A DNA stretch of 32,000 bases from Acholeplasma laidlawii PG-8A. Lineage in GTDB: Bacteria; Bacillota_I; Bacilli_A; Acholeplasmatales; Acholeplasmataceae. Positions 1,213 to 25,728 of this stretch are shown piece by piece (position 1 is the first letter of the stretch; each line of letters begins with the position of its first letter). The notes beneath the pieces were generated by a model. It saw only the letters and a program-made list of their open reading frames with translations. It was not told where the DNA came from and searched no databases. The stretch lies in NCBI RefSeq assembly GCF_000018785.1, contig NC_010163.1, positions 1,410,001-1,442,000 of the forward strand, given 5' to 3'. Made by a program: the position numbers and the translations under genes.

Positions 1213-4200
1213 TTATGCGACTGAAACTGTTAGAGTAACATTTTCAGAACTATTATTAAATAAGGATGCAACTGTTAAAGAAACGTTGATTTTACCACCT
1301 TGATTCCATGAGTAAGTATTTAAGTTTAATGTACCACTTGTAAGTAGGTCACTTTGCTTAATGGAACCATTACCTGGAATTGAGTTGTTTTTATCTGCTT
1401 CTAAGATTTGATTGATGAAACTTGAAGCACCTTCGTTATTATTTCTAAAGTATTCTCCCCAAAATACCGGGTTAGATGTAAGTCTTGCATCAATATGATA
1501 CACTACAATACCCGCATTACTTGGAATATATTCTAATCCCGAATGTGCACTATATAATCCGTTTGGTGTATAGAACATAACAAGTAAATATTCGTCAAAT
1601 GCATTACCATCATTTAAATCACTTGAGTTAAACGGAATTAATAATGTACTGTTTAAACCATCTGTATCTGTTGAGTAACTATCAAGTGTTACTTGATAAG
1701 TTCCTTTTTGAGCTACAAGTGGTTGTAACCAACCAAATACTAATTTATTAAATGGACCATGATCACCTGCATTATAATCCATCATGTCAAATCCACCCAT
1801 TGGTCCATATTGGTTGTTGCCTTCATATGGATAGAAATCTACTATACCCATTAAGTGACCAAGTTCATGAATGTATGTTTCACTGTTTAATATGAGATCA
1901 CTATTTCCTGGTAATGCATCATTCATGAAATCATAACTTGCCCAGAAATAGTATTCAAAGTTTTTACCATCTAATTCACTAACGCTACCAACGATATCTG
2001 GGTTAGATACATATACCCAAGCCCACCATGGATCCACATCATAATTGTAATCAGTTGAATAAATAAAGATGATTGAATCAATGACACCGTCATTATTAGA
2101 GTCATATTTACTAAAATCAATTGTACTATCAAGTGCTGTTAATGCATCTAAAATAGCATACTGATCACCATCTTGACCTTTACCTTCATAGAAGGCTTTC
2201 ACATTGCTTGTTACGTGTTTATCTAAGATATCAAAATTTAAATCAAGTAAACCAAAACTACTCTTATAGTAATAACTTGAAACACTTTCCCAACCTGTAT
2301 CTAGACTTGTACCATTAAATACTTTATCTAGTTTGGTTTTATAACTTGCTTCAAATGGTACATTTTGAATTTCAACTGGTACAACTAGCACATCATATGT
2401 ACCAGTTGAAGGTAAACCTGACATACCAAATTGAGAAACTTCGTATTCATTAATGGATTGACGTTTTGAAAGTGTTTCTAAAACAACATCGTCCATTACC
2501 GCATCAAATTGGTAGATATACACTTCTAAACTTTCAGTACCTTTAATGATGTACATTGCATATGCTAAATCATCATTGACAACATATACATAAACATCAT
2601 GTCCTCTTACTAAGGATAAGTCATCATTTTTTTCAAATGATTTGTTTAATATGAGGTTGATGTAGGATGTGTATAAAGTGTTTACATCTAAAGTTGTTGA
2701 ACCAACAACTTTAAAGGATTTGTCACTTACTTTAGTTACTTTTAAATTAGTTAGATCTGCAAAATCAGGCATATAAGTATTGAAATCTAAATCATCAAAC
2801 TTAGCTTCTAAATCAGTTACCACGTCACTCCATAATTCATAAACTGGAGCTGGTGCATTTCCCGTTAATAAATTCACATTAAAGATCATGAATTGACCAC
2901 CGTTAGATGTAGCACCTGTACCTTGGAATAACAATCTAAACTTAGATGCATTAATACCAGAAATAGTAATTAGTGTTTTACTTGAAGCAATTTGGCTGTA
3001 GAAATTTCCACCAGCTAAATCTGTCCAAACACCATTATTAAATACTTGTAGTTTAGCACCTGCTAAGTTTGGACTAAAGCCTGTTCTTCCTTGTATTTCA
3101 AAACTCATTGTATCAATTAAGTTACCTAGTGCATCTATTTCTAGATATACTGTTGGGTTTGCATTTCCACTTACATTAGCTGCAAAAATCTTACCCAATG
3201 ATAAACCACCTGGTGCGGTTTGAGTAATATTTGCTATATGACTTGCTTTTACGATTACCTTATTTGTGTTGTTAGCAAAATTTAGTGTAACATCAATATT
3301 ATTTCTATAACTTCCGTCTAAAGTACTTGTTGTATCTTGAACATTAAAGCTATAATACTCACCTATTTCAGGTTCAACTGGATCTACCGGTGTAGTACCT
3401 GCTTTATCCCCATAAATAGCTAAACCAAATACGGTTAGACCAGGATATGTTTCTTCATCAATGAAGATATATGCAAAATAGTCACCTAGTTTATACGCGT
3501 CTTCTGTTGCATCATATGCTAAACTACCGCTAAGTAGTGCATCATATGCATCAGCATCTGCATCTAACCATGTAAAGATATCCACATAGACTTCAACATA
3601 TGTTTCATCACTTAAGTCAGTAATTAGTACATCTTCTGAAACAATTGCCGGTAATAATGCGTAAATATCAAATCCAAAAATGCCATTTAATTCATCTTTA
3701 TCAAAAGGAGCTCCAACCGGATCGACTGGATCAACCGGTGTAGTACCTGCTTTATCCCCATAAATAGCTAAACCAAATACGGTTAGACCAGGATATGTTT
3801 CTTCATCAATGAAGATATATGCAAAATAGTCACCTAGTTTATACGCGTCTTCTGTTGCATCATATGCTAAACTACCGCTAAGTAGTGCATCATATGCATC
3901 AGCATCTGCATCTAACCATGTAAAGATATCCACATAGACTTCAATATATGTTTCATCACTTAAGTCAGTAATTAGTACATCCTCTGAAATAATTGCCGGT
4001 AATAAAGCGTAAATATCAAATCCAAAAATACCGTTTAATTCATCTTTATCAAAAGGAGCTCCAACCGGATCCACTGGATCAACTGGTGTTTCATCTTCTA
4101 AATATTGATATATTCCAATACCATAAATAATTGAACCAGGAACAATCTCATCATCTGCATAAAGATAAATAAATAGTTCTCCTAATATATATGCATCTTC

Positions 4201-5136
4201 TAAGGCATCATAAGTTAATAAATTTTCTAATAAGGCATCATAAGCCATTAAATCAGATTCTGTCCAATCAAAAACATCGATATAGACATCATTAAATAAG
4301 TCGTTTGAGTTATCAATCACTTCATAATCGCTTGTTACAATTTCAGGAATTAATGCATATACATCAAGTCCAAAAATACTGTTAAGTAATGCTGGATTAA
4401 AAGTTGTTCCAGAAGTAATTGGAACTTCTTTAAATTGTGCAACATAAACTATATCTGCTGTGGCTGCTACAACTGCCTTATCCCAACCAGTAAACTCAAA
4501 TGTATGTGTAAGTGTTGCTTCCTTTGTTGGTGTTTGACCAGTATATGCAGGTACTACCCCTGATGCAACTTCTACCGTTTGTAAAACCGCGTTATCATGG
4601 TTTTTAAAGCTAATTTCGAAAGTTTCTACTTCCCCTAAATTTTCCCACTTAGCGTAAAAACTCTTATGTTCTGTAGAACCGACTTCTACTTTATCTACAA
4701 AACTTGCTTCAGTATTTGATATAGACCATCCTAAGAATTTAAATCCCTCTTTAGTAGGCGTTAATAAATTGACTTCATCTAGTATTGTAAACTTGGATAC
4801 TTGTTCAGGATGAATCACACCACCATCTAGGTGTAATGTAATTGTATATTCAGTGATTGTCCATTTTGCATATAATGTCACTGAACTTGTAATATCAGTT
4901 GATAATTTAGAACCTTCATTTAAATCACTTTCTAAATACCAACTATTAAAAGTATATCCTGATTTTTCAGGTACTACTTTTTCAATCTCTGCTAAAGCAT
5001 AACTTTTTTCAAACTCAATGGCTTGAATATCATTTCCACCATTGGTTTCAAAAACAATTTTATAAGCAGTTAATTCTGTACACGCTATTAACACGAGTGT
5101 CATCAATAACGTAAAGATGATGCTAATTTTCTTCAT
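1213..5136 (-). CDS. Large surface lipoprotein: Listeria-Bacteroides repeats, three ~116-aa acidic repeats, a beta-sandwich-like region and a C-terminal M6 (immune inhibitor A-like) zinc metalloprotease domain
   Basis: 1307-aa ORF. Signal peptide with lipobox LVLIAC (Cys19). YKIVFETNGG...GYTFNSWY...VTLYAKW and a second copy match the Listeria-Bacteroides (Flg_new) repeat. HELGH zinc motif at 1855..1869, within ...DSNNDGVIDSIIFIYS...YIHELGHLMGIVDFY...GGFDMMD...FGWLQP, which is typical of the M6 peptidase domain. Confidence 0.85.
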   Translation of the reverse strand: MKKISIIFTLLMTLVLIACTELTAYKIVFETNGGNDIQAIEFEKSYALAEIEKVVPEKSGYTFNSWYLESDLNEGSKLSTDITSSVTLYAKWTITEYTITLHLDGGVIHPEQVSKFTILDEVNLLTPTKEGFKFLGWSISNTEASFVDKVEVGSTEHKSFYAKWENLGEVETFEISFKNHDNAVLQTVEVASGVVPAYTGQTPTKEATLTHTFEFTGWDKAVVAATADIVYVAQFKEVPITSGTTFNPALLNSIFGLDVYALIPEIVTSDYEVIDNSNDLFNDVYIDVFDWTESDLMAYDALLENLLTYDALEDAYILGELFIYLYADDEIVPGSIIYGIGIYQYLEDETPVDPVDPVGAPFDKDELNGIFGFDIYALLPAIISEDVLITDLSDETYIEVYVDIFTWLDADADAYDALLSGSLAYDATEDAYKLGDYFAYIFIDEETYPGLTVFGLAIYGDKAGTTPVDPVDPVGAPFDKDELNGIFGFDIYALLPAIVSEDVLITDLSDETYVEVYVDIFTWLDADADAYDALLSGSLAYDATEDAYKLGDYFAYIFIDEETYPGLTVFGLAIYGDKAGTTPVDPVEPEIGEYYSFNVQDTTSTLDGSYRNNIDVTLNFANNTNKVIVKASHIANITQTAPGGLSLGKIFAANVSGNANPTVYLEIDALGNLIDTMSFEIQGRTGFSPNLAGAKLQVFNNGVWTDLAGGNFYSQIASSKTLITISGINASKFRLLFQGTGATSNGGQFMIFNVNLLTGNAPAPVYELWSDVVTDLEAKFDDLDFNTYMPDFADLTNLKVTKVSDKSFKVVGSTTLDVNTLYTSYINLILNKSFEKNDDLSLVRGHDVYVYVVNDDLAYAMYIIKGTESLEVYIYQFDAVMDDVVLETLSKRQSINEYEVSQFGMSGLPSTGTYDVLVVPVEIQNVPFEASYKTKLDKVFNGTSLDTGWESVSSYYYKSSFGLLDLNFDILDKHVTSNVKAFYEGKGQDGDQYAILDALTALDSTIDFSKYDSNNDGVIDSIIFIYSTDYNYDVDPWWAWVYVSNPDIVGSVSELDGKNFEYYFWASYDFMNDALPGNSDLILNSETYIHELGHLMGIVDFYPYEGNNQYGPMGGFDMMDYNAGDHGPFNKLVFGWLQPLVAQKGTYQVTLDSYSTDTDGLNSTLLIPFNSSDLNDGNAFDEYLLVMFYTPNGLYSAHSGLEYIPSNAGIVVYHIDARLTSNPVFWGEYFRNNNEGASSFINQILEADKNNSIPGNGSIKQSDLLTSGTLNLNTYSWNQGGKINVSLTVASLFNNSSENVTLTVSVA
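3370..4090. repeat. Two near-identical tandem 348-bp copies (116 codons each) inside the lipoprotein CDS
   Basis: The unit starting tgtagtacctgctttatcccc occurs at 3391 and again at 3739 (period 348 bp). I count about 8 mismatches by eye. It encodes GAPFDKDELNGIFGFDIYALLPAI...GLAIYGDKAGTTPVDPVDPV twice. Confidence 0.9.
4087..4416. repeat. Third, diverged copy of the same ~116-aa module (similar at protein level only)
   Basis: TFNPALLNSIFGLDVYALIPEIV...AYDALLENLLTYDALEDAYILGELFIYLYADDE...PVDPVDPV aligns with the two downstream repeats. Confidence 0.7.
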
Positions 5137-9311: not shown

Positions 9312-10967
9312 TTATGGTAGTAAACTATCTACATCAACTGAAGTGCCTAGTGTTAAATAAAGTGAATTATAGAATGCTTGTTGTTCTTGTGGTGTTAGTG
9401 TATTTAATGCATCTAGTAAACCTTCTGTATCGGTTGGATCATTTGTATAAACATCTTCTAATGCAGCATAATCAGGATTTAATAATATTGTAGTTAATGC
9501 TGCATCAATTGCATCTTGTAGTTCTGCTAGGATAGCTGCATTAGCGCCTGTAGGCGTTACAACAAATCTTAAGTATTTACCAGAAACAGCTACACTATCC
9601 ACTGTAGTGGATTGTCCTGCAAAGTTACCCATAAAATCTTTAAGAATAATTTGATTACCAACAATCATTTCGTTTTCACCAACTAGATTTAGTATGGTTG
9701 CTACTTTATTGTTTGTAACGGTTGTATCATCGCCAATATGAATCACATCAATTGTAAATACTAAATCTTGTTTATCATCAGATATTGAAGGTATAGATAC
9801 TAATGTGAAATCTGTTTGGAATACTTTAGATGGATCAGTTTGATTGTAAAGTTTCATAATAATTGTAAAGTGTACTCTATTATCAATAAATCTAGCATAT
9901 AAAGGTAGTGTTTCTAATACATAGATATTTTCATCAAATTCAAAAGTTTGTGACATATCCATGGATTCACCCACATAGTACTCAATTAATTGATTAAATG
10001 TTTCTTCATGCATATCATAATTTAATGAAGATCCACCTGTAATAGATGACAACAACAATGTAGTAAGCTGAGACTCAAACATATTATTTAATTCTGTTTC
10101 ATCACTGATTTGGTTTGTTGTTTGATAAGGTGTTTCAGTTGAACGCATCTTACCGAGTGCGATACCAATACCACCGACATCTTCACCAAATCCTGAAACT
10201 AATAATTCTTCTTCATCTACAAAACCAAGTAGTGCTTCTATCATGAGTCTGTTGGGATCATCTTCTTTGGATATTAAGTTAATTAAGTCTTTTGTGTTGA
10301 CCCAAATAGATTTTGTTTTTAAATCATAGTTACCAAAACCAGATACTGCGTTTTGAATTAAACCGTTAAGCCCATCTTCTGTAAAACGGCTTACTATAAA
10401 GTCAGCTGCATCATACATCCATAAAATTGGCATGTTACCAAACTTAATTTCTTTGATAGTTAATTTATATTGTGTAATCAGTTCGTTATCAACTTCAACT
10501 TGTTCGATATTAATATCTAAGTCTAAATAAAGTGTTGTTTGATAATAGATATTAGAAAAACCTGCATCAAGTCCGGCTTCTATTGTAAGACCAGTTTCAT
10601 TAAACGCTAAGGTTACACCTTTAAAACCACCATTGTTGTTACCAAAGGCAATTGCATATTTTCTAGCATTTAAATCAATGGTTTCATCTGTTTTACCAAA
10701 GTCAGGATTTTCAGCTGCATAGATATCTTTTAATGCTGCATTCGCCTCACTACTTGTTAAAACAAAGTCAAATGATAAGGCATTTTCATCAGCAATGAAC
10801 TCATCTAGTTTGTTGCTGGCAATATCATTAAATGATAAGCCTTCATTTGCACTAAAATCATCTACTGGTGCACTGTATCCTTTGTACATAACTACAAGTA
10901 CAATCACTGGTGTTAAGACTATGAGTAACAATGCTAACTTAATAACTCTTTTAATCCATTTAAACAT
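9312..10967 (-). CDS. Hypothetical membrane-anchored extracytoplasmic protein (551 aa)
   Basis: Strong RBS (AAGGGGGGA) before the ATG. One N-terminal TM helix (VIKLALLLIVLTPVIVLVVMY). The rest is acidic and soluble-looking, and I recognise no catalytic motif. Confidence 0.75.
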   Translation of the reverse strand: MFKWIKRVIKLALLLIVLTPVIVLVVMYKGYSAPVDDFSANEGLSFNDIASNKLDEFIADENALSFDFVLTSSEANAALKDIYAAENPDFGKTDETIDLNARKYAIAFGNNNGGFKGVTLAFNETGLTIEAGLDAGFSNIYYQTTLYLDLDINIEQVEVDNELITQYKLTIKEIKFGNMPILWMYDAADFIVSRFTEDGLNGLIQNAVSGFGNYDLKTKSIWVNTKDLINLISKEDDPNRLMIEALLGFVDEEELLVSGFGEDVGGIGIALGKMRSTETPYQTTNQISDETELNNMFESQLTTLLLSSITGGSSLNYDMHEETFNQLIEYYVGESMDMSQTFEFDENIYVLETLPLYARFIDNRVHFTIIMKLYNQTDPSKVFQTDFTLVSIPSISDDKQDLVFTIDVIHIGDDTTVTNNKVATILNLVGENEMIVGNQIILKDFMGNFAGQSTTVDSVAVSGKYLRFVVTPTGANAAILAELQDAIDAALTTILLNPDYAALEDVYTNDPTDTEGLLDALNTLTPQEQQAFYNSLYLTLGTSVDVDSLLP

Positions 10968-15251: not shown

Positions 15252-15803
15252 TTATTCTATATTTTTATGTCGTAACCATGTATAGGTTAGAATCGCTAAC
15301 GGAATAATCATTTTGGATATAAATCCAATGAAAACATAAGTAATCTCAAGTGGATTTCCAATTAACGGTAACTTTAAATATAAATAGAGTTGATAACCAA
15401 CCATTAAGATCGTTGGAATCACTAATATAGATACTAATATATTTTCATTTCTTCTATAAAAATTACCTTGGTAATACATCATTGAAAACTTATATATACC
15501 TACATAAAGTAAGATAACAACAGCCACATCAAACATTAAGTCTGTATTAAAATTAGAAATTAATACAGGAAAGACCTGAATCATCGAAAATATCATATTT
15601 ACAATAAGCCAAACCCCTGCAAGTAACAACATACGCTTTGAGTTGTAGTTATGTTCTAAATAAAGTGCACCTAAAAATAAAAGTGTTGATAAACTACTAG
15701 AAATAACTAAGAGACTTCCTACAAGTGCTGATGTAAAAAGTACATAAGAAAGTTCTATGATAAATAATGTAAACATTATCCATTGTCTTTTAGTAAGTGT
15801 CAT
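15252..15803 (-). CDS. Hypothetical polytopic membrane protein (183 aa, about 5-6 TM helices)
   Basis: Hydrophobic throughout. ATGA overlap with the upstream DegV-like gene. No motif recognised. Confidence 0.7.
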   Translation of the reverse strand: MTLTKRQWIMFTLFIIELSYVLFTSALVGSLLVISSSLSTLLFLGALYLEHNYNSKRMLLLAGVWLIVNMIFSMIQVFPVLISNFNTDLMFDVAVVILLYVGIYKFSMMYYQGNFYRRNENILVSILVIPTILMVGYQLYLYLKLPLIGNPLEITYVFIGFISKMIIPLAILTYTWLRHKNIE

Positions 15804-16612
15804 AAATCCATCTCCTCATAATAACCTAAATATACACCATACATATCATCACCAAAATAAGTCGTCACCTGAGAACTTACCTCTCCATATAAAGTGATAT
15901 TTAAATCTTTGTTTTTTGTATAGAGTTCATGTTGTAAAAGCTTTGCTTTTGCACCGTATTTACCACTATATACAAATATATTGATTTTATCTTTAAAACC
16001 TTTAAATCCTAATATTTGATGATATAAAATATCGATGATATGTTTTTGCTTATACATTACTTGTTTAACTTCATAGTTGTTTGATGATACAACAAGGTAG
16101 CCTACTACCCACGGGCTCAGTAAATTTTGAAACCAGGATCTAGTTTCTTTGTATCTAGGGTTTGTTGTTACTACTATGGTCATACCTTTATCTACTTGTA
16201 CTTTAAGTAGTTCTTTAATTTTTTGGTATGTATAATTTTTACTGATCCAAATTTTAATACACATCGATAAATAATAGATACCTGGACCAAAGGTATGTGC
16301 ATCGATAATATCTACTTTAATATCTTTAAGTATATCTTTGGCAAGTATGGCATTTTCATAACTTCTAGTCATCTTCTTACTAGAAGTTATAATGAGTATA
16401 TTATAAATACCTGAATCATTCAATGCTTTTATTTTATCAATGTAATCTTTAGGGTTTGCTAACTTTTGAATACCCATATTGGATATATTTAGGTCAATTT
16501 TAATCACTTCGGTCTCAATAAAAGATAAAGACACGTCAGACGCATCTTTAAAAATGTTTTGTATTTTTTGCTTATCTAAAATTGAGTCTAAAATTATCCC
16601 TATTTTGCTCAT
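15800..16612 (-). CDS. Divergent DegV-family (fatty-acid-binding) protein
   Basis: The length and layout resemble DegV: N-terminal IGIILDS, central ILIITSSKKMTRSYENA, VDIIDAHTFGPGIYYL. I prefer the ATG at 16612, 1 nt after the upstream stop, to the TTG at 16636. The family assignment is tentative. Confidence 0.55.
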   Translation of the reverse strand: MSKIGIILDSILDKQKIQNIFKDASDVSLSFIETEVIKIDLNISNMGIQKLANPKDYIDKIKALNDSGIYNILIITSSKKMTRSYENAILAKDILKDIKVDIIDAHTFGPGIYYLSMCIKIWISKNYTYQKIKELLKVQVDKGMTIVVTTNPRYKETRSWFQNLLSPWVVGYLVVSSNNYEVKQVMYKQKHIIDILYHQILGFKGFKDKINIFVYSGKYGAKAKLLQHELYTKNKDLNITLYGEVSSQVTTYFGDDMYGVYLGYYEEMDL

Positions 16613-16613
16613 A

Positions 16614-17075
16614 TTACTTAAATATAAAGAAGCCAATCACACCAATAAATGCACCTAGTAAGATGCCCACTAAAACTTCTTTTGGTTTGTGACCAAGTTT
16701 TTCTTTTAGCTTCTTTTCTTCAATATCGATATTTTCAATCATGTTTAATCTATATTTAATAATATTTAACTCCATAGCGTGTTTACTTGCTTCTAGTCTG
16801 ATACCCATGGAATCATGAATAACAACTAATGCTATGACAAATGAAATAGCAAAGCCAATACTTAATGTACCTTGGTTATGATAATCAAACATACCAATCG
16901 ATACAAATAAAGCTGTAACAAGTGCGCTATGACTAGATGGCATACCGCCAGTAGAAATTAAAATACTTTCATTTAATTTTCTATTTATTAAGCCATCAAT
17001 AAAAAACTTACTCACCTGAGCAATTAACATGGCTGATATGGATATAATTAGAACTGCTTCAGGTACTGTAAACAT
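16614..17075 (-). CDS. Divergent PAP2 family membrane protein (YuiD-like)
   Basis: 153 aa with GGMPSSHSALVTAL and HDSMGIR motifs typical of the divergent PAP2 / DUF212 family. Confidence 0.85.
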   Translation of the reverse strand: MFTVPEAVLIISISAMLIAQVSKFFIDGLINRKLNESILISTGGMPSSHSALVTALFVSIGMFDYHNQGTLSIGFAISFVIALVVIHDSMGIRLEASKHAMELNIIKYRLNMIENIDIEEKKLKEKLGHKPKEVLVGILLGAFIGVIGFFIFK

Positions 17076-17642: not shown

Positions 17643-18161
17643 CTAACCCTTAAAGTAGGTATCTAATGGCACATCATGAGCTTGTGGTTCAAAAGATACT
17701 TCTTCTTGTTCATAAATTATACCAATTTTATATGGATTTTGATAAACTTTGAAAAATTTATCATAATATCCTTTTCCATAACCTAATCTGTAATTGGTTT
17801 TAGTCATACCAAGTGCAGGAACGATGATCACTTCAAGTTTTGAAGTGATATCAAATCCATAACTTGGTTCTGATACACCAAAGTGTGATTTTTTGAGTTC
17901 TATTGTTTTGTCTACTTGTAAAAACTGTATTTTATCATTTACTATTTTTGGATAGGCAAATATTTTGTCAGGATATTTTTCTATTAACGGTGTTAAATCC
18001 ATTTCATTTTGAGTTGGATAAAAAATACCTACAAAATCAGCCTTTAAGAAGTGTTCTTCTTCGCTTAGCATATCCATTACTTTTTTACTTGATTGTAATC
18101 TTTGTTCTTGACTTATCCCAAGTCGTGCTTCAATGATTTGTTTTCTTAGTACTTTTTTCAT
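17643..18161 (-). CDS. 5-formyltetrahydrofolate cyclo-ligase
   Basis: 172 aa. IIVPALGMTKTNYRLGYGKGYYDKF is the family signature. Confidence 0.85.
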   Translation of the reverse strand: MKKVLRKQIIEARLGISQEQRLQSSKKVMDMLSEEEHFLKADFVGIFYPTQNEMDLTPLIEKYPDKIFAYPKIVNDKIQFLQVDKTIELKKSHFGVSEPSYGFDITSKLEVIIVPALGMTKTNYRLGYGKGYYDKFFKVYQNPYKIGIIYEQEEVSFEPQAHDVPLDTYFKG

Positions 18162-18166
18162 ATACG

Positions 18167-19750
18167 CTACTTGATGTCATTAAAATAACATCCTTGCCCC
18201 CTATACTGTGGTAATTGAGCAGTTTTTAATGCTAAAGATGCATTTTGGAATAGATCCTGTGCATTAACTGCATCATCATACATCTGTGCTACACCTACAA
18301 ATACTTCAAGCTCTGCAGTAATTGAACCATATTCAATGGTCATGTTTAAATGGTTTTCTTCTGCCTTGATACCTTTATAAAGTGAAGCCATTTTTCTTTG
18401 GTCTGTAATGGTTAAAACAAATTCTAATCCGGATAATCTGTAAAGATCTGAACTTTCTGTAACAAAGGTTTGTTTAAGTTTAGAGATATATTGTCCCATC
18501 AACATATTTCCCACTTCTCTGCCATACATCTCATTGATTTTAGGTATATTTTTTAGGTTAATAATTGCTAGTTGGAAAGGTCTTGTTGTTTTAATTAATG
18601 CTTTTAGATCGGGTAGTATATAGTTTTCATCTTTTATGGTATCAAGTATTTCAATACCGGTTTTTCTAAAGTGTTTAGAATGCATCGGTGTCATAATACC
18701 CATGATCACTGCATTTTGTTTATCTTCAAATAAACGTTTACCTTTTTCTTTAATCCACATAGATTGACCATCTACTAATAATCTATAGCTTACGGAGTAG
18801 CTTGCTTTATTAGGTGTAAGGTCATTTGTAACTTGTAGGTATTTTTTGATATCATCTGCATCAATTAAAGCTCTATAGTCATCTACATTTAAAATGTTAG
18901 ATGGTAGTTTCAATTGATCTCTTACGATATCATTAACCCAAATTGTTTTTTCATCTAAATCTATATAGAATAGACCATCTTCTGATAACTCTAGCGTTGC
19001 TATAAATTTATGTCTAATACTTTCAAGTTCGTAGTCTACTTTTTTAAGCTCTCTTTCAACAACCATTAATGCTTCATCGGTTTTCTTTTCACCCACACAC
19101 ATACGTCCTCTATATTTACCGAGTGCAAAGAGTGGTTGCATATTTAAATGAAGTATGACGGTTTCTCCGTTGAAGTTTAAGAAGTGTAGTTCTTGATCTT
19201 CACTATCGTTTGCTTTAACAGTTTTTTTGTAATCATTATAATATTTTTCAATGGTTCGATTATTAACATCTTCGCCATTTAGTTTGGTAAAACGGATTTT
19301 TGTACCAAATACGGAAAACAACTTTTTACCAACAACATCTGCTTTATCTAAATTAAGTTCTCTTAGAAGTGATATGGATATATCTTTAATACGTTCTTTA
19401 TGGTCGACTACATAATAGACATTCCATTTGGTATTTTTAACACCCTTTATAAAGAGTTGATATTGACTTGCATTTGTAATTGCATTTCTAAATGTATTGT
19501 AAAGAGAAATTAAAAAGACGAAATACGTAAAGTATAGGTAGATGACATAACCCAATAACCAATCTTCATTGGTAACAATGCGCGTTTCATAAATAAAGAA
19601 TAAAACAATAAAGATTGCAATATTAATAAACGAGAAGGTTAATCTATTTTTTAATACATTTTCTTTTAATATCGATTCAGTTACTACAAATACCACAATG
19701 AAAAATGCGATAATAAGGCCAAATATTGGATGTTGTGCGTATGCTAACAT
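18167..19750 (-). CDS. Membrane sensor protein: N-terminal TM helices, two PAS-like domains and a degenerate GGDEF-like domain (SGLEF)
   Basis: 527 aa with about 3 TM helices in the first 95 aa. PAS-like stretch LSEDGLFYIDLDEKTIWVNDIVRDQL...YRLLVDGQSMWIKEKGKRLFED. The C-terminus FQLAIINLKNIPKINEMYGREVGNMLM...LYRLSGLEFVLTI...VGVAQ...LFQNASLALKTAQ is collinear with GGDEF domains, but the GGDEF and metal-binding Asp positions are replaced. Confidence 0.75.
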   Translation of the reverse strand: MLAYAQHPIFGLIIAFFIVVFVVTESILKENVLKNRLTFSFINIAIFIVLFFIYETRIVTNEDWLLGYVIYLYFTYFVFLISLYNTFRNAITNASQYQLFIKGVKNTKWNVYYVVDHKERIKDISISLLRELNLDKADVVGKKLFSVFGTKIRFTKLNGEDVNNRTIEKYYNDYKKTVKANDSEDQELHFLNFNGETVILHLNMQPLFALGKYRGRMCVGEKKTDEALMVVERELKKVDYELESIRHKFIATLELSEDGLFYIDLDEKTIWVNDIVRDQLKLPSNILNVDDYRALIDADDIKKYLQVTNDLTPNKASYSVSYRLLVDGQSMWIKEKGKRLFEDKQNAVIMGIMTPMHSKHFRKTGIEILDTIKDENYILPDLKALIKTTRPFQLAIINLKNIPKINEMYGREVGNMLMGQYISKLKQTFVTESSDLYRLSGLEFVLTITDQRKMASLYKGIKAEENHLNMTIEYGSITAELEVFVGVAQMYDDAVNAQDLFQNASLALKTAQLPQYRGQGCYFNDIK

Positions 19751-19759
19751 AATCTTTAC

Positions 19760-19930
19760 CTATAATACTGGTTGAACATATATCATGAACATAATAAAGA
19801 CTGTTACGATAAATGCTACAACGTAAATTAGCCACTCATGGCGGTCAAAGAATTTAACAACTGTTTCTGCAAATCCTCTAGATCCTAGATATCTAATTGG
19901 TTCTACTAAGAATTTTAAAAATGATTTCAT
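19760..19930 (-). CDS. Small membrane protein (56 aa) between cdaA and the PAS/GGDEF-like gene
   Basis: Below the ORF-track size cutoff. ATG at 19930 with GGGGGA 7 nt upstream, 12 nt after the cdaA stop. Translation: MKSFLKFLVEPIRYLGSRGFAETVVKFFDRHEWLIYVVAFIVTVFIMFMIYVQPVL, with a C-terminal TM helix. TAG at 19762..19760 lies 9 nt before the next ATG. Confidence 0.55.
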   Translation of the reverse strand: MKSFLKFLVEPIRYLGSRGFAETVVKFFDRHEWLIYVVAFIVTVFIMFMIYVQPVL

Positions 19931-19942
19931 TAGATCATCCCC

Positions 19943-20695
19943 CTACTTCATGAATAATGATAAGTATTCATTTAAAGTACTTTCATCTTTCATTTTTGTC
20001 ATGACACCGTTAATCGCTAAAGAAATAGAGCCGGTTTCCTCTGATACTACAACTGTAAGTGAGTCCGTAATTTCTGATATGCCTAATGCTGCACGGTGTC
20101 TTGAACCTGTGGTCTTCTCAAAATTTTCATTACTAGATAAAATAAAGTAAGCACCCGCACAGACAATTTTATCTCCACGTACGATCACTGCACCATCATG
20201 TAGTGGTGTGTTTGGTGTAAATACATTGATCAGTAGTTCATGTGAAACTTCAGAGTTTAAGGTAATAGCTCTTTGAGCATATTGGTCTAAGTTATTATGT
20301 TTTTCAATTGTAATTAAACCACCAATACTTTGTTTAGATAATGAAAGTGCTGCTTTAATGATTTCAGATTTGGTGCGCTCACTACCCATAATGACTGCAC
20401 CTTGTCTTATTGTCTCTTTCCATAAGGATTCAAGTGTTAATCTAAAGTCTGGCGCACCTACAACAATAATAAATATTAGTAATAATACCGGTAATTGATC
20501 ATATGCACCGCTTGCCATTTTTAGTCCTAAGAAATCTGCTAAACCAAATAGAAGCCAAATAATAATATAAAGCAGGAACATCGAAAAAACACGTTTATTA
20601 TATAAAACGAATTTAAGTATTAATACAATTAATATATAGATTAAATAGAAGTCTAATATACTCCACCAATCTAAATTTACAGCCCAATCTGGCAT
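19943..20695 (-). CDS. cdaA: Diadenylate cyclase CdaA (membrane-bound, DisA_N/DAC domain)
   Basis: 250 aa with three N-terminal TM helices, then LHDGAVIVRGDKIVCAGAYF...TGSRHRAALGISEITDSLTVVVSEETGSISLA (DGA and RHR motifs of DAC domains). GAAGGTGA RBS. Confidence 0.92.
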   Translation of the reverse strand: MPDWAVNLDWWSILDFYLIYILIVLILKFVLYNKRVFSMFLLYIIIWLLFGLADFLGLKMASGAYDQLPVLLLIFIIVVGAPDFRLTLESLWKETIRQGAVIMGSERTKSEIIKAALSLSKQSIGGLITIEKHNNLDQYAQRAITLNSEVSHELLINVFTPNTPLHDGAVIVRGDKIVCAGAYFILSSNENFEKTTGSRHRAALGISEITDSLTVVVSEETGSISLAINGVMTKMKDESTLNEYLSLFMK

Positions 20696-22541: not shown

Positions 22542-22562
22542 TTTTCCATGTTTGATAGTTTT

Positions 22563-22630
22563 GTCGTATAATTGGCTAAATATGGTGGCCAGAGTTTCTA
22601 CCGCAATACCGTAAATATTGCGACTACGAT
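22563..22630 (+). promoter_or_regulatory. Purine riboswitch aptamer, guanine-type (C at the specificity position)
   Basis: GUCGUAUAAUUGGCUAAAUAUGGUGGCCAGAGUUUCUACCGCAAUACCGUAAAUAUUGCGACUACGAU. All hallmark blocks are present (UAUAAU, AUAUGG, GUUUCUACC, CCGUAAAU, GACUA). P2 UGGCU/GGCCA and P3 CGCAAUA/UAUUGCG pair. The J3/1 ACU has C at 22624. Confidence 0.9.
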
Positions 22631-22667
22631 GAGCAACTTTTCTTTTTTAAGTTGTCATGTAGATAGA

Positions 22668-22751: not shown

Positions 22752-24119
22752 ATGAATCAAATTAAAAAGTTCTTCAAGTTTGAAGAACGCGGCGCGTCTT
22801 TCCGTGCAGAAATTATTGGTGGCATTGTCACATTCTTAGCGATGAGCTATATTTTAGTCGTAAATCCTGGTATTGCATCTGGATTATGGTCTGGAGAGGC
22901 TGGTATTCCTTATGGTGGTGTATTCTTTGCAACTGTAGTTGGTGCATTTATCGCAACCATGGTGATGGCTTTACTAGCAAACCTACCCATTGGTTTAGCA
23001 CCTGGTATGGGTGTGAATGCATTCTTTGTAGGTGTCATTATTGGCCAATATGGCTACACATGGCAAGAAGCACTTGCATTGAGTTTTATTGGTGGACTTT
23101 TATTCTTACTTATCTCATTAACACCATTAAGACGTACCCTTATACAAGCAATCCCACAAGATCTTAAAGCTGCAATTGGTGTGGGTATTGGTTTCTTTAT
23201 TGCTTTTGTAGGTTTACGTTTATCCGGTGTTTTTGTTTGGAATGGTCAATTACAGTTAGGTGATCTTACAAGCCCTTCTGTCTTACTTGGACTATTTAGT
23301 GTTGTTTTAATCTTCATTGTACACTCTTTAAAACACGGTATTTCTAAATTCTCATTTATTATATCTATCGTTGTTACAGCACTTGTTGGGTTACTCTTAG
23401 GTCAACTTGGTGTTCAAAATATGCCATCCTTTGGTGAATTCAATTATGATGCATTTGCAGATATTCCCAATGTTGCTTTTGTTGGTGTATTTGAAGGCTT
23501 TAAAACTGTATTTACACAACCAGTATTTACTACACTATTCTTAGTATTTGCTCTCTTATTTGTGGATATTTTCGATACTGCTGGTACTTTAGTAGCTGTT
23601 GGTAAATCTGCTGGTTTAGAAGATAGTGAAGGTAATATTCCTAATTTAGATAAAGCACTACTTGCTGACTCTATTGGTACACTTGTTTCTTCTACACTAG
23701 GTACACCTGAAATTACTTCTTATGTAGAATCTACAACAGGGGTTGAAGCTGGTGCTAAAACAGGATTCTCATCTGTTGTGGTTGCACTATTATTCTTATT
23801 ATCTTTAGCATTATTTCCAATCTTTAATATCTTTACACACTCTTCTGTAACACTAGGTGCACTTGTTTTAGTTGGTGTGTTAATGTCTCAACAATTAAAA
23901 GAAATTGATTGGTCAAACATGACTTCTGCTATTACAGCATTTGTTGTGATTGTTGGTATGATTTTTACATCAAGTATTGCTGATGGTATCGCATTTGGAT
24001 TTATCGTCTATACTTTAATTAAACTTGTTCGTGGTGAGTATAAAGATGTTCACCCAATTATCTATGGATCAAGCGTATTATTTGTTGTATACTTCATCTT
24101 AACTGCAAACCTCATTTAA
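22752..24119 (+). CDS. pbuG: Guanine/hypoxanthine permease (AzgA/NCS2 family, PbuG-like)
   Basis: 455 aa. FKFEERGASFRAEIIGGIVTFLAMSYILVVNP, APGMGVNAFF, FDTAGTLVAVG, TSYVESTTGVEAGAKTG are collinear with B. subtilis PbuG as I recall it. Confidence 0.9.
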   Translation: MNQIKKFFKFEERGASFRAEIIGGIVTFLAMSYILVVNPGIASGLWSGEAGIPYGGVFFATVVGAFIATMVMALLANLPIGLAPGMGVNAFFVGVIIGQYGYTWQEALALSFIGGLLFLLISLTPLRRTLIQAIPQDLKAAIGVGIGFFIAFVGLRLSGVFVWNGQLQLGDLTSPSVLLGLFSVVLIFIVHSLKHGISKFSFIISIVVTALVGLLLGQLGVQNMPSFGEFNYDAFADIPNVAFVGVFEGFKTVFTQPVFTTLFLVFALLFVDIFDTAGTLVAVGKSAGLEDSEGNIPNLDKALLADSIGTLVSSTLGTPEITSYVESTTGVEAGAKTGFSSVVVALLFLLSLALFPIFNIFTHSSVTLGALVLVGVLMSQQLKEIDWSNMTSAITAFVVIVGMIFTSSIADGIAFGFIVYTLIKLVRGEYKDVHPIIYGSSVLFVVYFILTANLI

Positions 24120-24342: not shown

Positions 24343-25728
24343 TTATAAGAAGAATAACATTGATAATAAGAACATAAATATGACACCGGCAACCATTGGG
24401 ACCCAAGTACGTTTTACGATACTAAATGGTGTTTGTTTCGTTGAACCAGCGACAATAACTATCACTGCTGAAACCGGTGAAACAGCTCTTAGTAAGTTAC
24501 CTGCTAAGCCCATTGGGACTGTAATAGCAAAAGCACTAATACCTGCTGCAAGTGCTAATGGTGCCATTAATGGTACCATCGCATAGAATAAAGCTGTACC
24601 TGAACCAGATAGAATAACAATAACTGCTGTTAAGATTACTAAAATTAGTGGCAATGTGAAGCCCGGAACATTAGTTGTGGTCATAACTTCTTGAAGATGT
24701 GAAATAATACCTACTGATTTTAAACCTTCAACAAAGACACCTGCTGCAACTAATAATGCAACAATACCCATTGCATTACCCATACCCTTGAAGAATGATT
24801 CTGTACCATCTAGTACTTGACGTGGGTTTCTACTTCTAATAATTTCAGCAACGACTGCAATCAAGAAGGATACTAGTGTAACCAATTCAACAGACATAGA
24901 AATATCGGTTGTACCTGGAATTAAGTTATAACCATATAAGGCTAATAATAGCACGATTGGTAATAAAGGCAATAGTGTATAAACTGTTTTATAAAGTGCA
25001 CTACCTTTAACTTCTTTGATTTCTTGTAATTGTAGTTCTTCTACTTGTACAACACCCTTTGTTGTGTCTTTTTTATCTGAATATTTTTGCCAGAAGTAGT
25101 GAACAACCGCCATGAATAATAAGGTTGGTACAGATACAATTGCATGGTAGCTAAACACATAAGTTGCAACATCCATACCTAATTCGGCAGCTATTGCAAC
25201 GTTATCGCCACCAAGTGGTGTTGGCATAACTGTAGCTGTGGTTGCAATTACAGCGGCTGCTGTTAATGTTGACATACCTGATTTCTTTAATACCGGATAT
25301 AAAGTTGCCAACAATATAATAGCTAGGTTTGATGCACTTGGAATAACTAGAGATAATACGTTACCTAGTAAAAAGACAATTGGTACTAAGATCCAAGCAG
25401 ATTTGATCCCTTTTAGTGGTTTGGTCAATGTGTTAACAGTGACTTCATTCGCACCAATTGCGCTCATATAAGCCGTGTAACCACCTTATATTAAAATGAT
25501 GAATCCGGCACGTGGTAGGACAGCTTTAAATTGATCAATAATCAAATTAAATGGTGCCATAAATTCTGAAAACTGTGTGGTTGGTAGATTACCCATAAAC
25601 ATAGCAACTACAACCAATAACATCCCTACAACGAGCAATGTAACCTTGATGTCTAATTTCTTTAACAGCATATAAATAACTGCTGCAACAGCTAATATAC
25701 TAGCCGCATACATTAAGAATAAATTCAT
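24343..25728 (-). pseudogene. DcuC-family anaerobic C4-dicarboxylate-type carrier interrupted by a single in-frame TAA
   Basis: ORFs 25486..25728 and 24343..25467 are in the same frame. The read-through translation is ...AGFIILI*GGYTAYMSAIGANEVTV..., with TAA at 25488..25486. The joined length is 460 sense codons. It is collinear with E. coli DcuC (...CGFAAYMTHIGANDMVV...) as I recall it. Confidence 0.75.

What the first reader, a model, noticed from the sequence alone, without database searches (positions are those of the whole stretch)
18167..20695. Non-canonical cdaA module: CdaA, a 56-aa membrane peptide and a GdpP-like sensor half without a phosphodiesterase, in place of cdaR-glmM
In Firmicutes the membrane diadenylate cyclase gene cdaA is classically followed by cdaR (YbbR-domain regulator) and glmM. 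Both gene products bind and regulate CdaA. Here cdaA (19943..20695) is followed 12 nt later by a 56-aa single-TM peptide. Nine nt after that comes a 527-aa protein built as TM helices, two PAS-like domains and a degenerate GGDEF domain. That architecture matches the N-terminal sensory part of the c-di-AMP phosphodiesterase GdpP (TM-PAS-degenerate GGDEF), but the catalytic DHH/DHHA1 half is absent. The next gene is 5-formyl-THF cyclo-ligase, so this is not a split GdpP. The tight spacing implies co-translation with CdaA. My inference is that this is an alternative, undescribed membrane sensor/regulator pair that controls c-di-AMP synthesis.
Basis: partly seen in the sequence, partly recalled or inferred. 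Interest (0 to 1): 0.7.

Follow-up and report, generated by a model that had tools for sequence, protein, structure and literature searches.

The report
CdaA-linked membrane PAS / dead-GGDEF sensor
In Acholeplasma laidlawii and its wall-less relatives, the gene for the enzyme that makes the signal molecule c-di-AMP is almost always followed by a gene for a membrane sensor protein with a catalytically dead GGDEF domain; this sensor is a plausible but untested new regulator of that enzyme.

Summary
On the minus strand lie cdaA (19943-20695), a 56-aa tail-anchored peptide gene (19760-19930) and a 527-aa gene (18167-19750), with gaps of 12 and 9 nt. The 527-aa protein ("PG") has 3 TM helices, PAS, a linker helix, PAS and a GGDEF fold.

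The window is Acholeplasma laidlawii; the three proteins are identical to ABX81960, ABX81959 and ABX81958 of strain PG-8A.

- **GGDEF domain is dead as a cyclase.** The motif is xG[LIV]xF in 118/118 orthologs. The metal-binding Asp, the phosphate Lys (now Pro) and the I-site Arg are all lost.
- **"GdpP-like" is only a loose resemblance.** No member hits Pfam's GdpP-specific PAS or GGDEF models, and hhalign against GdpP gives 0.4%. The best structural matches are DosP/RbdA-type PAS-PAS-GGDEF proteins.
- **The gene linkage is very strong.** cdaA lies just upstream in 82/83 Acholeplasmataceae loci and upstream in 26/26 Izimaplasma-type loci. cdaA is the most persistent neighbour, ahead of MTHFS and IspDF.
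- **The peptide is a clade-specific accessory.** Elsewhere it is absent or replaced by other genes.
- **No cdaR or glmM lies near cdaA** in any locus examined.

Physical or functional coupling to CdaA is inferred, not shown. The rest of the genome was not searched for cdaR, glmM or phosphodiesterases.

The parts
19943..20695 (-). cdaA: membrane diadenylate cyclase, 250 aa. TM helices are encoded at about 20432-20659 and the DAC domain at about 20003-20356.
   Evidence: Pfam DAC 2.4e-39; TIGR00159 at 189.1 bits against cut-off 188.8. Three hydrophobic segments. DGA and RHR motifs are invariant among orthologs. Identical to ABX81960.1 of A. laidlawii.
19760..19930 (-). 56-aa tail-anchored membrane peptide. 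It has a basic, amphipathic N-terminal part of about 33 aa and a C-terminal TM helix encoded at about 19775-19831.
   Evidence: Hydropathy. An ORF of the same size and position occurs in other genera. A profile built from 7 copies finds it between cdaA and the PG gene in 77 of 83 Acholeplasma-type loci, and in L096 and L097. No Pfam or NCBIfam family. Annotated 'hypothetical protein' ABX81959.1.
18167..19750 (-). PG: 527-aa membrane sensor-like protein (3 TM, PAS, linker helix, PAS, degenerate GGDEF).
   Evidence: Pfam, NCBIfam, AF2 model, Foldseek, PDB profile search. Full-length orthologs at 40-99% identity in about 80 species. Identical to ABX81958.1, 'membrane-anchored GGDEF domain protein'.
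19469..19729 (-). PG transmembrane region, residues 8-94: three helices joined by very short loops, so there is no extracytoplasmic domain.
   Evidence: AF2 helices 8-29, 34-58 and 62-94. Hydropathy. Nearly invariant polar residues Q6, P8, S26, K34 and N43.
19082..19420 (-). PG PAS domain 1, residues 111-223. It is absent from the Izimaplasma-type short form.
   Evidence: PAS_9 hit. AF2 strands and helices. The short class matches profile positions from about 220 onward only.
18986..19075 (-). PG long linker (signalling) helix, residues 226-255. It leads into the most conserved stretch of the family (KFIATLE..).
   Evidence: AF2 helix 226-255. Conserved block used as a search pattern. Conserved as LR+RFI..L.L in the short class.
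18683..18973 (-). PG PAS domain 2, residues 260-356.
   Evidence: PAS_3 hit in 70/70 members. AF2. Invariant W271, D300, Y304, Y318, R323, W332, E335, G337.
18170..18652 (-). PG degenerate GGDEF domain, residues 367-527. The signature SGLEF is encoded at 18419-18433.
   Evidence: PF00990 5.9e-10. PDB GGDEF domains down to 5.8e-8. Motif xG[LIV]xF in 118/118 orthologs. Catalytic positions are replaced in all members.
17643..18161 (-). 5-formyltetrahydrofolate cyclo-ligase gene, 5 nt downstream of PG. It is a conserved neighbour but less persistent than cdaA, and is probably not part of the signalling function.
   Evidence: TIGR02727 at 134.6 bits. Within 100 nt downstream in 79/80 Acholeplasma-type loci, 14/35 Izimaplasma-type loci and 1/4 distant long-form loci.

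Best explanation
PG is a membrane-embedded, cytoplasm-facing sensor with no enzymatic output of its own. It most likely works as a protein partner of the cyclase CdaA and tunes c-di-AMP synthesis in wall-less Bacilli (Acholeplasmatales and Izimaplasma-type lineages). Functionally it would take the place that CdaR and GlmM hold in walled Firmicutes.

**Proposed mechanism (inferred)**
- PG dimerises through its PAS domains and long linker helix.
- It sits next to CdaA in the membrane, since both have three TM helices.
- Membrane state, or a cytoplasmic ligand sensed by the TM or PAS parts, changes the position of the dead GGDEF domain.
- That change either permits or blocks the head-to-head pairing of DAC domains that catalysis needs. 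GlmM acts on the same step.
- The 56-aa tail-anchored peptide is a clade-specific accessory subunit of this membrane complex.

**Shown:** anatomy, loss of cyclase residues, and near-universal gene linkage to cdaA.

**Inferred:** any interaction, the direction of regulation and the signal.
For: 1. Linkage is near universal.
   - A DAC gene lies within 300 nt upstream, on the same strand, in 82 of 83 Acholeplasma-type loci. The exception, L012, carries a three-gene cassette between the peptide and PG genes.
   - A DAC gene is upstream in 26 of 26 Izimaplasma-type loci that have enough DNA. Twelve are directly adjacent.
   - The same holds in three of four very distant long-form loci.
2. The linkage survives rearrangement.
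   - Upstream neighbours differ: HxlR/HflX, aminotransferase, RNR, ClpC-like, DnaX.
   - Downstream neighbours differ: MTHFS in 79/80, 14/35 and 1/4 loci; IspD in 60/80, 35/35 and 3/4 loci.
   - cdaA is therefore the most persistent neighbour.
3. PG has sensor modules but a dead output.
   - The motif is xG[LIV]xF in 118/118 orthologs.
   - The metal-binding Asp is variable, the Lys is Pro in 66/70, and the I-site Arg is replaced.
   - The domain is nevertheless under strong constraint: N406, G414, N415, R438, G441, F444 and K453 are invariant.
   - CdaA is the only signalling enzyme in the cluster.
4. The genes appear to form one unit. Gaps are 12 and 9 nt with SD-like sequences, and no terminator is predicted between the genes.
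5. No YbbR or GlmM gene lies beside cdaA in any locus. This rests on the Pfam lists, and on the absence of any GlmM-like ORF in the window plus 158 loci (with the query validated).
6. A. laidlawii lacks a cell wall (PMC2408644). A peptidoglycan-linked regulator pair would therefore have little to sense.
Against: - There is no direct evidence of interaction or of an effect on c-di-AMP.
- The cluster also always carries housekeeping genes (MTHFS and/or IspD-IspF, then YutD and NifU). The gap to MTHFS is shorter than the gap to the peptide gene, so adjacency could be inherited operon structure.
- One distant lineage (L095) keeps PG next to IspDF without cdaA.
- In 14 Izimaplasma-type loci a gene of about 780 aa separates cdaA from PG.
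- A mirror-tree test showed no co-evolution signal between CdaA and PG beyond that of control genes.
- No DAC-PG fusion protein was found among 415 retrieved sequences.
- A. laidlawii has 14 GGDEF/EAL proteins, so a role in c-di-GMP signalling is conceivable.
Confidence: 0.5

Rival explanations
1. The adjacency is inherited operon structure. cdaA, PG, MTHFS, IspD/IspF, YutD and NifU form an old housekeeping cluster of this lineage. PG is a membrane sensor or scaffold whose target is not CdaA, for example membrane, isoprenoid or one-carbon metabolism, or something encoded elsewhere.
For: - IspD follows PG in 35/35 Izimaplasma-type loci, 60/80 Acholeplasma-type loci and 3/4 distant loci. MTHFS follows in 79/80 Acholeplasma-type loci.
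- L095 keeps PG-IspD-IspF without cdaA.
- The PG-MTHFS gap is only 5 nt.
- PG's TM and PAS1 distances correlate with MTHFS (partial r 0.52-0.56) more than with CdaA.
Against: - cdaA is a more constant neighbour than either MTHFS or IspD once both clades are considered.
- A. laidlawii, Haploplasma and A. palmae have lost IspDF from the cluster but keep cdaA-peptide-PG.
- L096 and L097 lack MTHFS but keep the trio.
- None of the housekeeping neighbours is an obvious target for a PAS sensor.
Confidence: 0.3
2. PG belongs to the c-di-GMP network of Acholeplasma as a non-catalytic receptor or adaptor, and is unrelated to c-di-AMP.
For: - A. laidlawii encodes 14 GGDEF/EAL proteins (PMC2408644).
- The best structural matches are c-di-GMP enzymes: DosP, RbdA and LOV-DGC.
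- Databases annotate PG as a diguanylate cyclase.
Against: - The canonical RxxD I-site is not intact, with Arg replaced by Thr.
- Substrate- and metal-binding residues are lost in all members.
- PG is a single, strictly syntenic ortholog tied to cdaA, unlike a lineage-specific expansion of paralogs.
Confidence: 0.08
3. PG is a remnant of GdpP, a c-di-AMP phosphodiesterase that lost its DHH/DHHA1 half.
Against: - The Pfam PAS_GdpP and GGDEF_GdpP models hit a GdpP control at 9e-32 and 7e-43. They are not reported at E <= 1 for the window protein, nor among the 25 most-matched families of the 70 PG members.
- hhalign probability is 0.4%.
- PG has 3 TM helices and 2 PAS domains, against 2 TM and 1 PAS in GdpP.
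- No DHH or DHHA1 ORF lies nearby.
Confidence: 0.03

Closest known systems
cdaA-cdaR-glmM operon of Bacillus, Listeria and Staphylococcus
   Same: A CdaA-type, three-TM diadenylate cyclase gene opens an operon and is followed directly by genes for a membrane-anchored protein. The expectation is that the partners control cyclase activity (own knowledge of Mehne 2013, Gundlach 2015, and PMC8573169, PMC6368335).
   Different: There are no YbbR domains and no phosphoglucosamine mutase. The partner's sensing parts are cytoplasmic or intramembrane (PAS, PAS, dead GGDEF), not extracytoplasmic. The hosts are wall-less.
GdpP (YybT), the c-di-AMP phosphodiesterase
   Same: Membrane anchor, PAS domain and degenerate GGDEF domain in the same order, with a link to c-di-AMP metabolism.
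   Different: PG has no DHH/DHHA1 catalytic half. It has 3 TM helices and 2 PAS domains. It does not match the GdpP-specific Pfam models, and hhalign gives 0.4%.
DosP and RbdA (PA0861), PAS-(PAS)-GGDEF-EAL proteins
   Same: These are the best Foldseek matches: DosP at 4e-17 and PA0861 at 1e-11. They show the same PAS-PAS-GGDEF arrangement, and DosP likewise has a non-catalytic GGDEF.
   Different: PG has no EAL output domain. It is membrane-anchored and has no conserved His or Cys for haem or flavin.
Non-catalytic GGDEF proteins such as S. aureus GdpS, PopA and PelD (own knowledge)
   Same: A GGDEF fold kept for a non-cyclase role. GdpS is also membrane-anchored. There is a weak NCBIfam GdpS hit for the Izimaplasma-type PG (26 bits against a cut-off of 400).
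   Different: PG has no intact I-site for c-di-GMP binding and a different N-terminal architecture. The GdpS score is far below cut-off.
CdaM of Mycoplasma pneumoniae (PMC5508000)
   Same: It is the c-di-AMP cyclase of another wall-less lineage that lacks cdaR-glmM.
   Different: CdaM has a single TM helix and no known partner gene. The window enzyme scores as CdaA (189 bits) and not as CdaM (128 bits against a cut-off of 225).

Membership tests
CdaA (TIGR00159 diadenylate cyclase) | DAC domain with DGA and RHR catalytic motifs | tested here: met
   PF02457 2.4e-39. LHDGAV and SRHRAA are invariant in 7 genera.
CdaA (TIGR00159 diadenylate cyclase) | Three N-terminal TM helices, and a score above the equivalog cut-off | tested here: met
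   Hydrophobic segments at 13-31, 40-58 and 70-88. The score of 189.1 bits against a cut-off of 188.8 passes only marginally.
CdaR | N-terminal TM helix followed by YbbR domains, encoded directly after cdaA | tested here: not met
   Neither the 56-aa nor the 527-aa protein has a YbbR hit at E <= 1. No YbbR family appears in the Pfam lists of 12 neighbourhoods.
GlmM | Phosphoglucosamine mutase gene in the cdaA operon | tested here: not met
   phmmer with a GlmM query (validated at 655 bits on TIGR01455) finds nothing in the window or in 158 loci. The rest of the genome was not searched.
GdpP | GdpP-type PAS domain (PF21370) and GdpP-type GGDEF domain (PF24898) | tested here: not met
   The control GdpP sequence hits both models at 9e-32 and 7e-43. 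Neither model is reported at E <= 1 for the window protein, and neither is among the 25 most-matched families of the 70 PG members. hhalign gives 0.4%.
GdpP | DHH/DHHA1 phosphodiesterase domains | tested here: not met
   Absent from PG. The next gene is MTHFS. No DHH family appears in any neighbourhood list (and others).
Active diguanylate cyclase (GGDEF, PF00990) | GGDEF fold | tested here: met
   PF00990 at 39.6 bits, above the gathering score of 23.8. PDB GGDEF domains down to 5.8e-8. AF2 and Foldseek agree.
Active diguanylate cyclase (GGDEF, PF00990) | GG[DE]EF signature, the metal-binding Asp and the phosphate-binding Lys | tested here: not met
   The signature is SGLEF here and xG[LIV]xF in 118/118 orthologs. 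The Asp position is R/K/E/N and the Lys position is Pro in 66/70.
c-di-GMP receptor of the I-site type | RxxD motif upstream of the signature | tested here: not met
   The sequence is T-E-S-x-D, with Arg replaced by Thr. Binding itself cannot be tested here.
PAS sensor domains | Two PAS folds | tested here: met
   PAS_9 and PAS_3 are found in 70/70 members, though below the gathering score in the window protein. AF2 shows PAS topology in both regions. Foldseek hits are LOV-PAS and DosP. The ligand is unknown.
CdaA regulator (functional class) | Physical binding to CdaA and an effect on c-di-AMP synthesis | not testable with these tools
   Only gene linkage is available. The co-evolution test was inconclusive.

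The most novel reading that the evidence does not exclude
A catalytically dead GGDEF domain, a module borrowed from c-di-GMP signalling, has been recruited as the regulatory arm of a membrane sensor. This sensor binds CdaA directly and sets c-di-AMP synthesis in wall-less Bacilli. It would be a third kind of CdaA regulator after CdaR and GlmM, and would report membrane or osmotic state instead of cell-wall precursor supply.
Probability: 0.4. Interest if true: 0.75.

Novelty: new variant of a known kind. Interest (0 to 1): 0.6.

Why it matters
c-di-AMP is essential and also toxic in excess. How CdaA is controlled is understood only through CdaR and GlmM, and both are tied to the cell wall. Wall-less bacteria must regulate osmotic balance without that input, and no CdaA regulator is known for them.

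A partner gene linked to cdaA in about 99% of sampled Acholeplasma- and Izimaplasma-type genomes gives a concrete, testable candidate. It would also be a clear case of a dead GGDEF domain working outside c-di-GMP signalling.

In practical terms, database entries that call this protein a diguanylate cyclase are very probably wrong.

Tried and rejected
- **GdpP kinship: rejected.** GdpP-specific Pfam models and hhalign are both negative. The GdpP sequence was recalled from memory and then validated by Pfam.
- **Homology between the 3-TM regions of CdaA and PG: rejected.** hhalign probability is 1.2%.
- **Mirror-tree partial-correlation test over 71 species: not discriminating.** The controls NifU and MTHFS correlate as strongly as CdaA does.
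- **Rosetta-stone fusion of DAC with PG: none found** among 415 retrieved proteins.
- **L094 as an exception without cdaA: withdrawn.** Its upstream 604-aa fragment belongs to the ~780-aa family that lies between cdaA and PG in Izimaplasma-type loci.
- **Foldseek against afdb50:** unavailable.
- **Metagenome scans with broad alignments A5 and A6:** The narrower alignment A7 worked.
- **Homolog search with P0203 to name the L093 lineage:** returned only the query itself.
- **Papers:** Galperin 2023 (DAC architectures) and Lazarev 2011 (A. laidlawii genome) are not held. No paper in the library links Acholeplasma with diadenylate cyclase, and the only one pairing Acholeplasma with c-di-AMP is a non-coding RNA survey. 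No listed paper mentions Izimaplasma together with c-di-AMP or GGDEF.
- **First exact-sequence look-up:** failed because I trimmed the wrong end of the minus-strand genes. It was repeated correctly. The same slip removed the initial Met from the first rows of alignments A2 and A3, which has no effect on the conclusions.
Full report
**Where the window comes from.** The window has about 31% G+C. Its three proteins are identical to ABX81960.1 (CdaA), ABX81959.1 (hypothetical, 56 aa) and ABX81958.1 ("membrane-anchored GGDEF domain protein") of Acholeplasma laidlawii PG-8A. The 527-aa protein is encoded unchanged on complete A. laidlawii chromosomes of about 1.5 Mb.

The minus strand carries cdaA (19943-20695), a 56-codon ORF (19760-19930), a 527-codon ORF (18167-19750) and a 5-formyl-THF cyclo-ligase gene (17643-18161).
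- The gaps are 12, 9 and 5 nt. Shine-Dalgarno-like sequences precede the peptide and 527-aa genes.
- CdaA has a DAC domain (2.4e-39) and just passes the NCBIfam CdaA equivalog cut-off, at 189.1 against 188.8 bits. It has three hydrophobic segments and conserved DGA and RHR motifs.
- The peptide has a basic N-terminal part of about 33 aa and one TM segment four residues from its C-terminus. It is therefore tail-anchored, with its bulk in the cytoplasm.

**Anatomy of the 527-aa protein, called PG here.**
- Pfam finds a GGDEF domain above threshold and two weak PAS matches. All 70 aligned relatives hit GGDEF, PAS_3 and PAS_9.
- An AlphaFold2 model built on 70 sequences (mean pLDDT 82.9) shows three TM helices joined by very short loops. 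These are followed by PAS (111-223), a 30-residue helix, PAS (260-356) and a GGDEF fold (367-527).
- The best PDB matches by Foldseek are E. coli DosP, P. aeruginosa PA0861 (RbdA) and LOV-PAS constructs. A profile search of PDB sequences finds ordinary GGDEF domains.

**The GGDEF domain cannot be a cyclase.**
- The signature is SGLEF in the window. In 118 of 118 orthologs that cover the site it reads x-G-[LIVT]-x-F and never GG[DE]EF.
- Alignment to solved cyclases gives three further losses. The metal-binding Asp position is variable (R/K/E/N). The following phosphate-binding Lys is Pro in 66/70 members. The guanine-contacting Asp is an invariant Asn.
- The I-site RxxD reads T-E-S-x-D.
- The domain still keeps many invariant residues, including N406, G414, N415, R438, G441, F444 and K453. 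It is therefore retained for a non-catalytic purpose.
- Public annotations of this protein as "diguanylate cyclase" are probably wrong.

**"GdpP-like" is only a loose analogy.**
- Pfam holds GdpP-specific PAS and GGDEF models. A GdpP sequence that I recalled from memory and then validated hits them at 9e-32 and 7e-43, together with DHH and DHHA1.
- Neither model is reported at E <= 1 for the window protein, and neither is among the 25 most-matched families of the 70 family members.
- Profile-profile comparison with GdpP gives a probability of 0.4%.
- PG has three TM helices and two PAS domains, whereas GdpP has two and one.

**Gene order in relatives, Acholeplasma-type clade.**
- PG has full-length orthologs of about 525 aa at 40-99% identity throughout Acholeplasmataceae. 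Named genera include Acholeplasma, Alteracholeplasma, Haploplasma, Mariniplasma, Peloplasma and Paracholeplasma.
- In 82 of 83 loci with at least 1 kb of upstream DNA, a DAC gene ends within 300 nt upstream on the same strand. A profile of the peptide finds an ORF between the two genes in 77 of those 83 loci.
- The single exception, metagenome locus L012, has a three-gene bacteriocin-export cassette inserted between the peptide and PG genes.
- The genes upstream of cdaA differ between genera: HxlR/HflX, aminotransferase, ribonucleotide reductase and a ClpC-like gene. The 5' edge of the trio is therefore a synteny breakpoint.

**Gene order beyond that clade.**
- A search of 1.84 billion representative proteins shows the family fading smoothly from 723 to about 190 bits. 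It also reveals a second, shorter class of about 385 aa that lacks PAS1.
- The short class belongs to Candidatus Izimaplasma and Candidatus Xianfuyuplasma.
- In 61 metagenomic loci of this class, every one of the 26 with enough upstream DNA has a DAC gene upstream on the same strand. In 12 it is directly adjacent. In 14 it is separated by an uncharacterised membrane-protein gene of about 780 aa.
- Three very distant long-form loci also keep cdaA upstream. L096 and L097 have a recognisable peptide homolog, and L093 has a methylglyoxal-synthase-like gene in its place.
- Only L095 has PG without cdaA.

**Downstream neighbours are less constant.** MTHFS follows PG in 79/80, 14/35 and 1/4 loci. IspD follows in 60/80, 35/35 and 3/4 loci. 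cdaA is thus the most persistent neighbour of PG. The peptide is a clade-specific extra, not half of a universal pair.

**Absence of the classical partners.**
- No YbbR-domain or phosphoglucosamine-mutase gene appears in any annotated neighbourhood.
- A validated GlmM query finds nothing in the window or in 158 loci. The window holds a single DAC gene.
- I could not search the rest of the genome. A cdaR, a glmM, a second cyclase or the phosphodiesterases may therefore exist elsewhere.

**Interpretation.** PG has sensing modules (a TM bundle, PAS domains and a signalling helix) but no working output domain, so it must act through another protein. The only signalling enzyme in its conserved neighbourhood is CdaA, and that neighbour is kept across two orders of wall-less Bacilli.
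- The most likely reading (confidence about 0.5) is that PG is a CdaA-associated sensor that modulates c-di-AMP synthesis. Functionally it would replace the wall-linked regulators CdaR and GlmM, and the peptide would be an accessory membrane subunit in the Acholeplasma-type clade.
- How it acts is inference. It might work through TM contacts, or through the dead GGDEF domain blocking or allowing DAC head-to-head pairing as GlmM does.

**Against this reading.**
- The cluster is a long co-directional run of housekeeping genes with equally tight spacing and no predicted internal terminators.
- IspDF is also a very faithful neighbour.
- A distance-matrix co-evolution test gave no signal above the controls.
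- No DAC-PG fusion exists in the retrieved set.
- A. laidlawii has 14 GGDEF/EAL proteins, so a c-di-GMP role cannot be excluded.

**Novelty.** The searchable library holds no paper linking Acholeplasma with diadenylate cyclase. The only paper pairing Acholeplasma with c-di-AMP is a non-coding RNA survey. None of the listed hits mentions Izimaplasma together with c-di-AMP or GGDEF. To my knowledge a PAS/dead-GGDEF partner of CdaA has not been described. I rate it a new variant of a known kind: an alternative cdaA operon partner. It is well supported as a conserved genomic association and unproven as a mechanism.

Noticed in passing
window 22544-22646 (+): Purine riboswitch (RF00167, 72.8 bits) directly upstream of the xanthine/uracil-family permease gene at 22752-24119.
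   Followed up: partly
window 24343-25467 (-): The DcuC-type carrier is 374 aa here and covers only profile positions 92-457. The same gene is 461 aa in L003 and is split into 80 + 374 aa in L001. This suggests an N-terminal frameshift or truncation in this strain.
   Followed up: no
window 9312-10967 (-): A 551-aa ORF with no Pfam match. It is conserved in A. laidlawii strains but split into 342 + 181 aa in L005.
   Followed up: no
window 1213-5136 (-): A 1307-aa protein whose only Pfam match is the N-terminal Listeria-Bacteroides repeat. It may be a large surface protein.
   Followed up: no
L098:2641-4986, L126:1129-3360, L151:2550-4895 and 14 other Izimaplasma-type loci: An uncharacterised protein of about 740-780 aa sits between cdaA and the PAS-GGDEF gene. 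It has a weak N-terminal FAD/NAD Rossmann motif, a weak SCP2/alkyl-sulfatase-C-like region and C-terminal TM helices. It could be another clade-specific partner.
   Followed up: partly
L093:4639-4998: In one distant lineage a 119-aa methylglyoxal-synthase-like gene occupies the peptide's position between cdaA and the PAS-GGDEF gene.
   Followed up: no
L012:1730-4583: A bacteriocin-type export cassette (C39 peptidase/ABC transporter, ABC ATPase and a 37-aa ORF) is inserted on the opposite strand between the peptide gene and the PAS-GGDEF gene.
   Followed up: no
L011, L095, L093-L097 and Izimaplasma-type loci: The order clpC-like ... DAC gene ... ispD-ispF recalls the Bacillus subtilis cluster clpC-radA-disA-yacL-ispD-ispF (own knowledge). 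Here a CdaA-type cyclase sits where DisA does in Bacillus. This may be coincidence or a trace of an old gene order.
   Followed up: no
L095:4425-5000: The only PG homolog without a neighbouring cdaA has an ankyrin-repeat gene upstream and no Pfam-detectable domains of its own. The contig comes from a very large assembly, possibly of a host-associated organism.
   Followed up: no
window 15800-16636 / 16614-17075 (-): The longest DegV ORF (TTG start, 278 aa) overlaps the preceding DUF212 gene by 23 nt. Other strains are annotated with a 270-aa version, so the start codon is uncertain.
   Followed up: no
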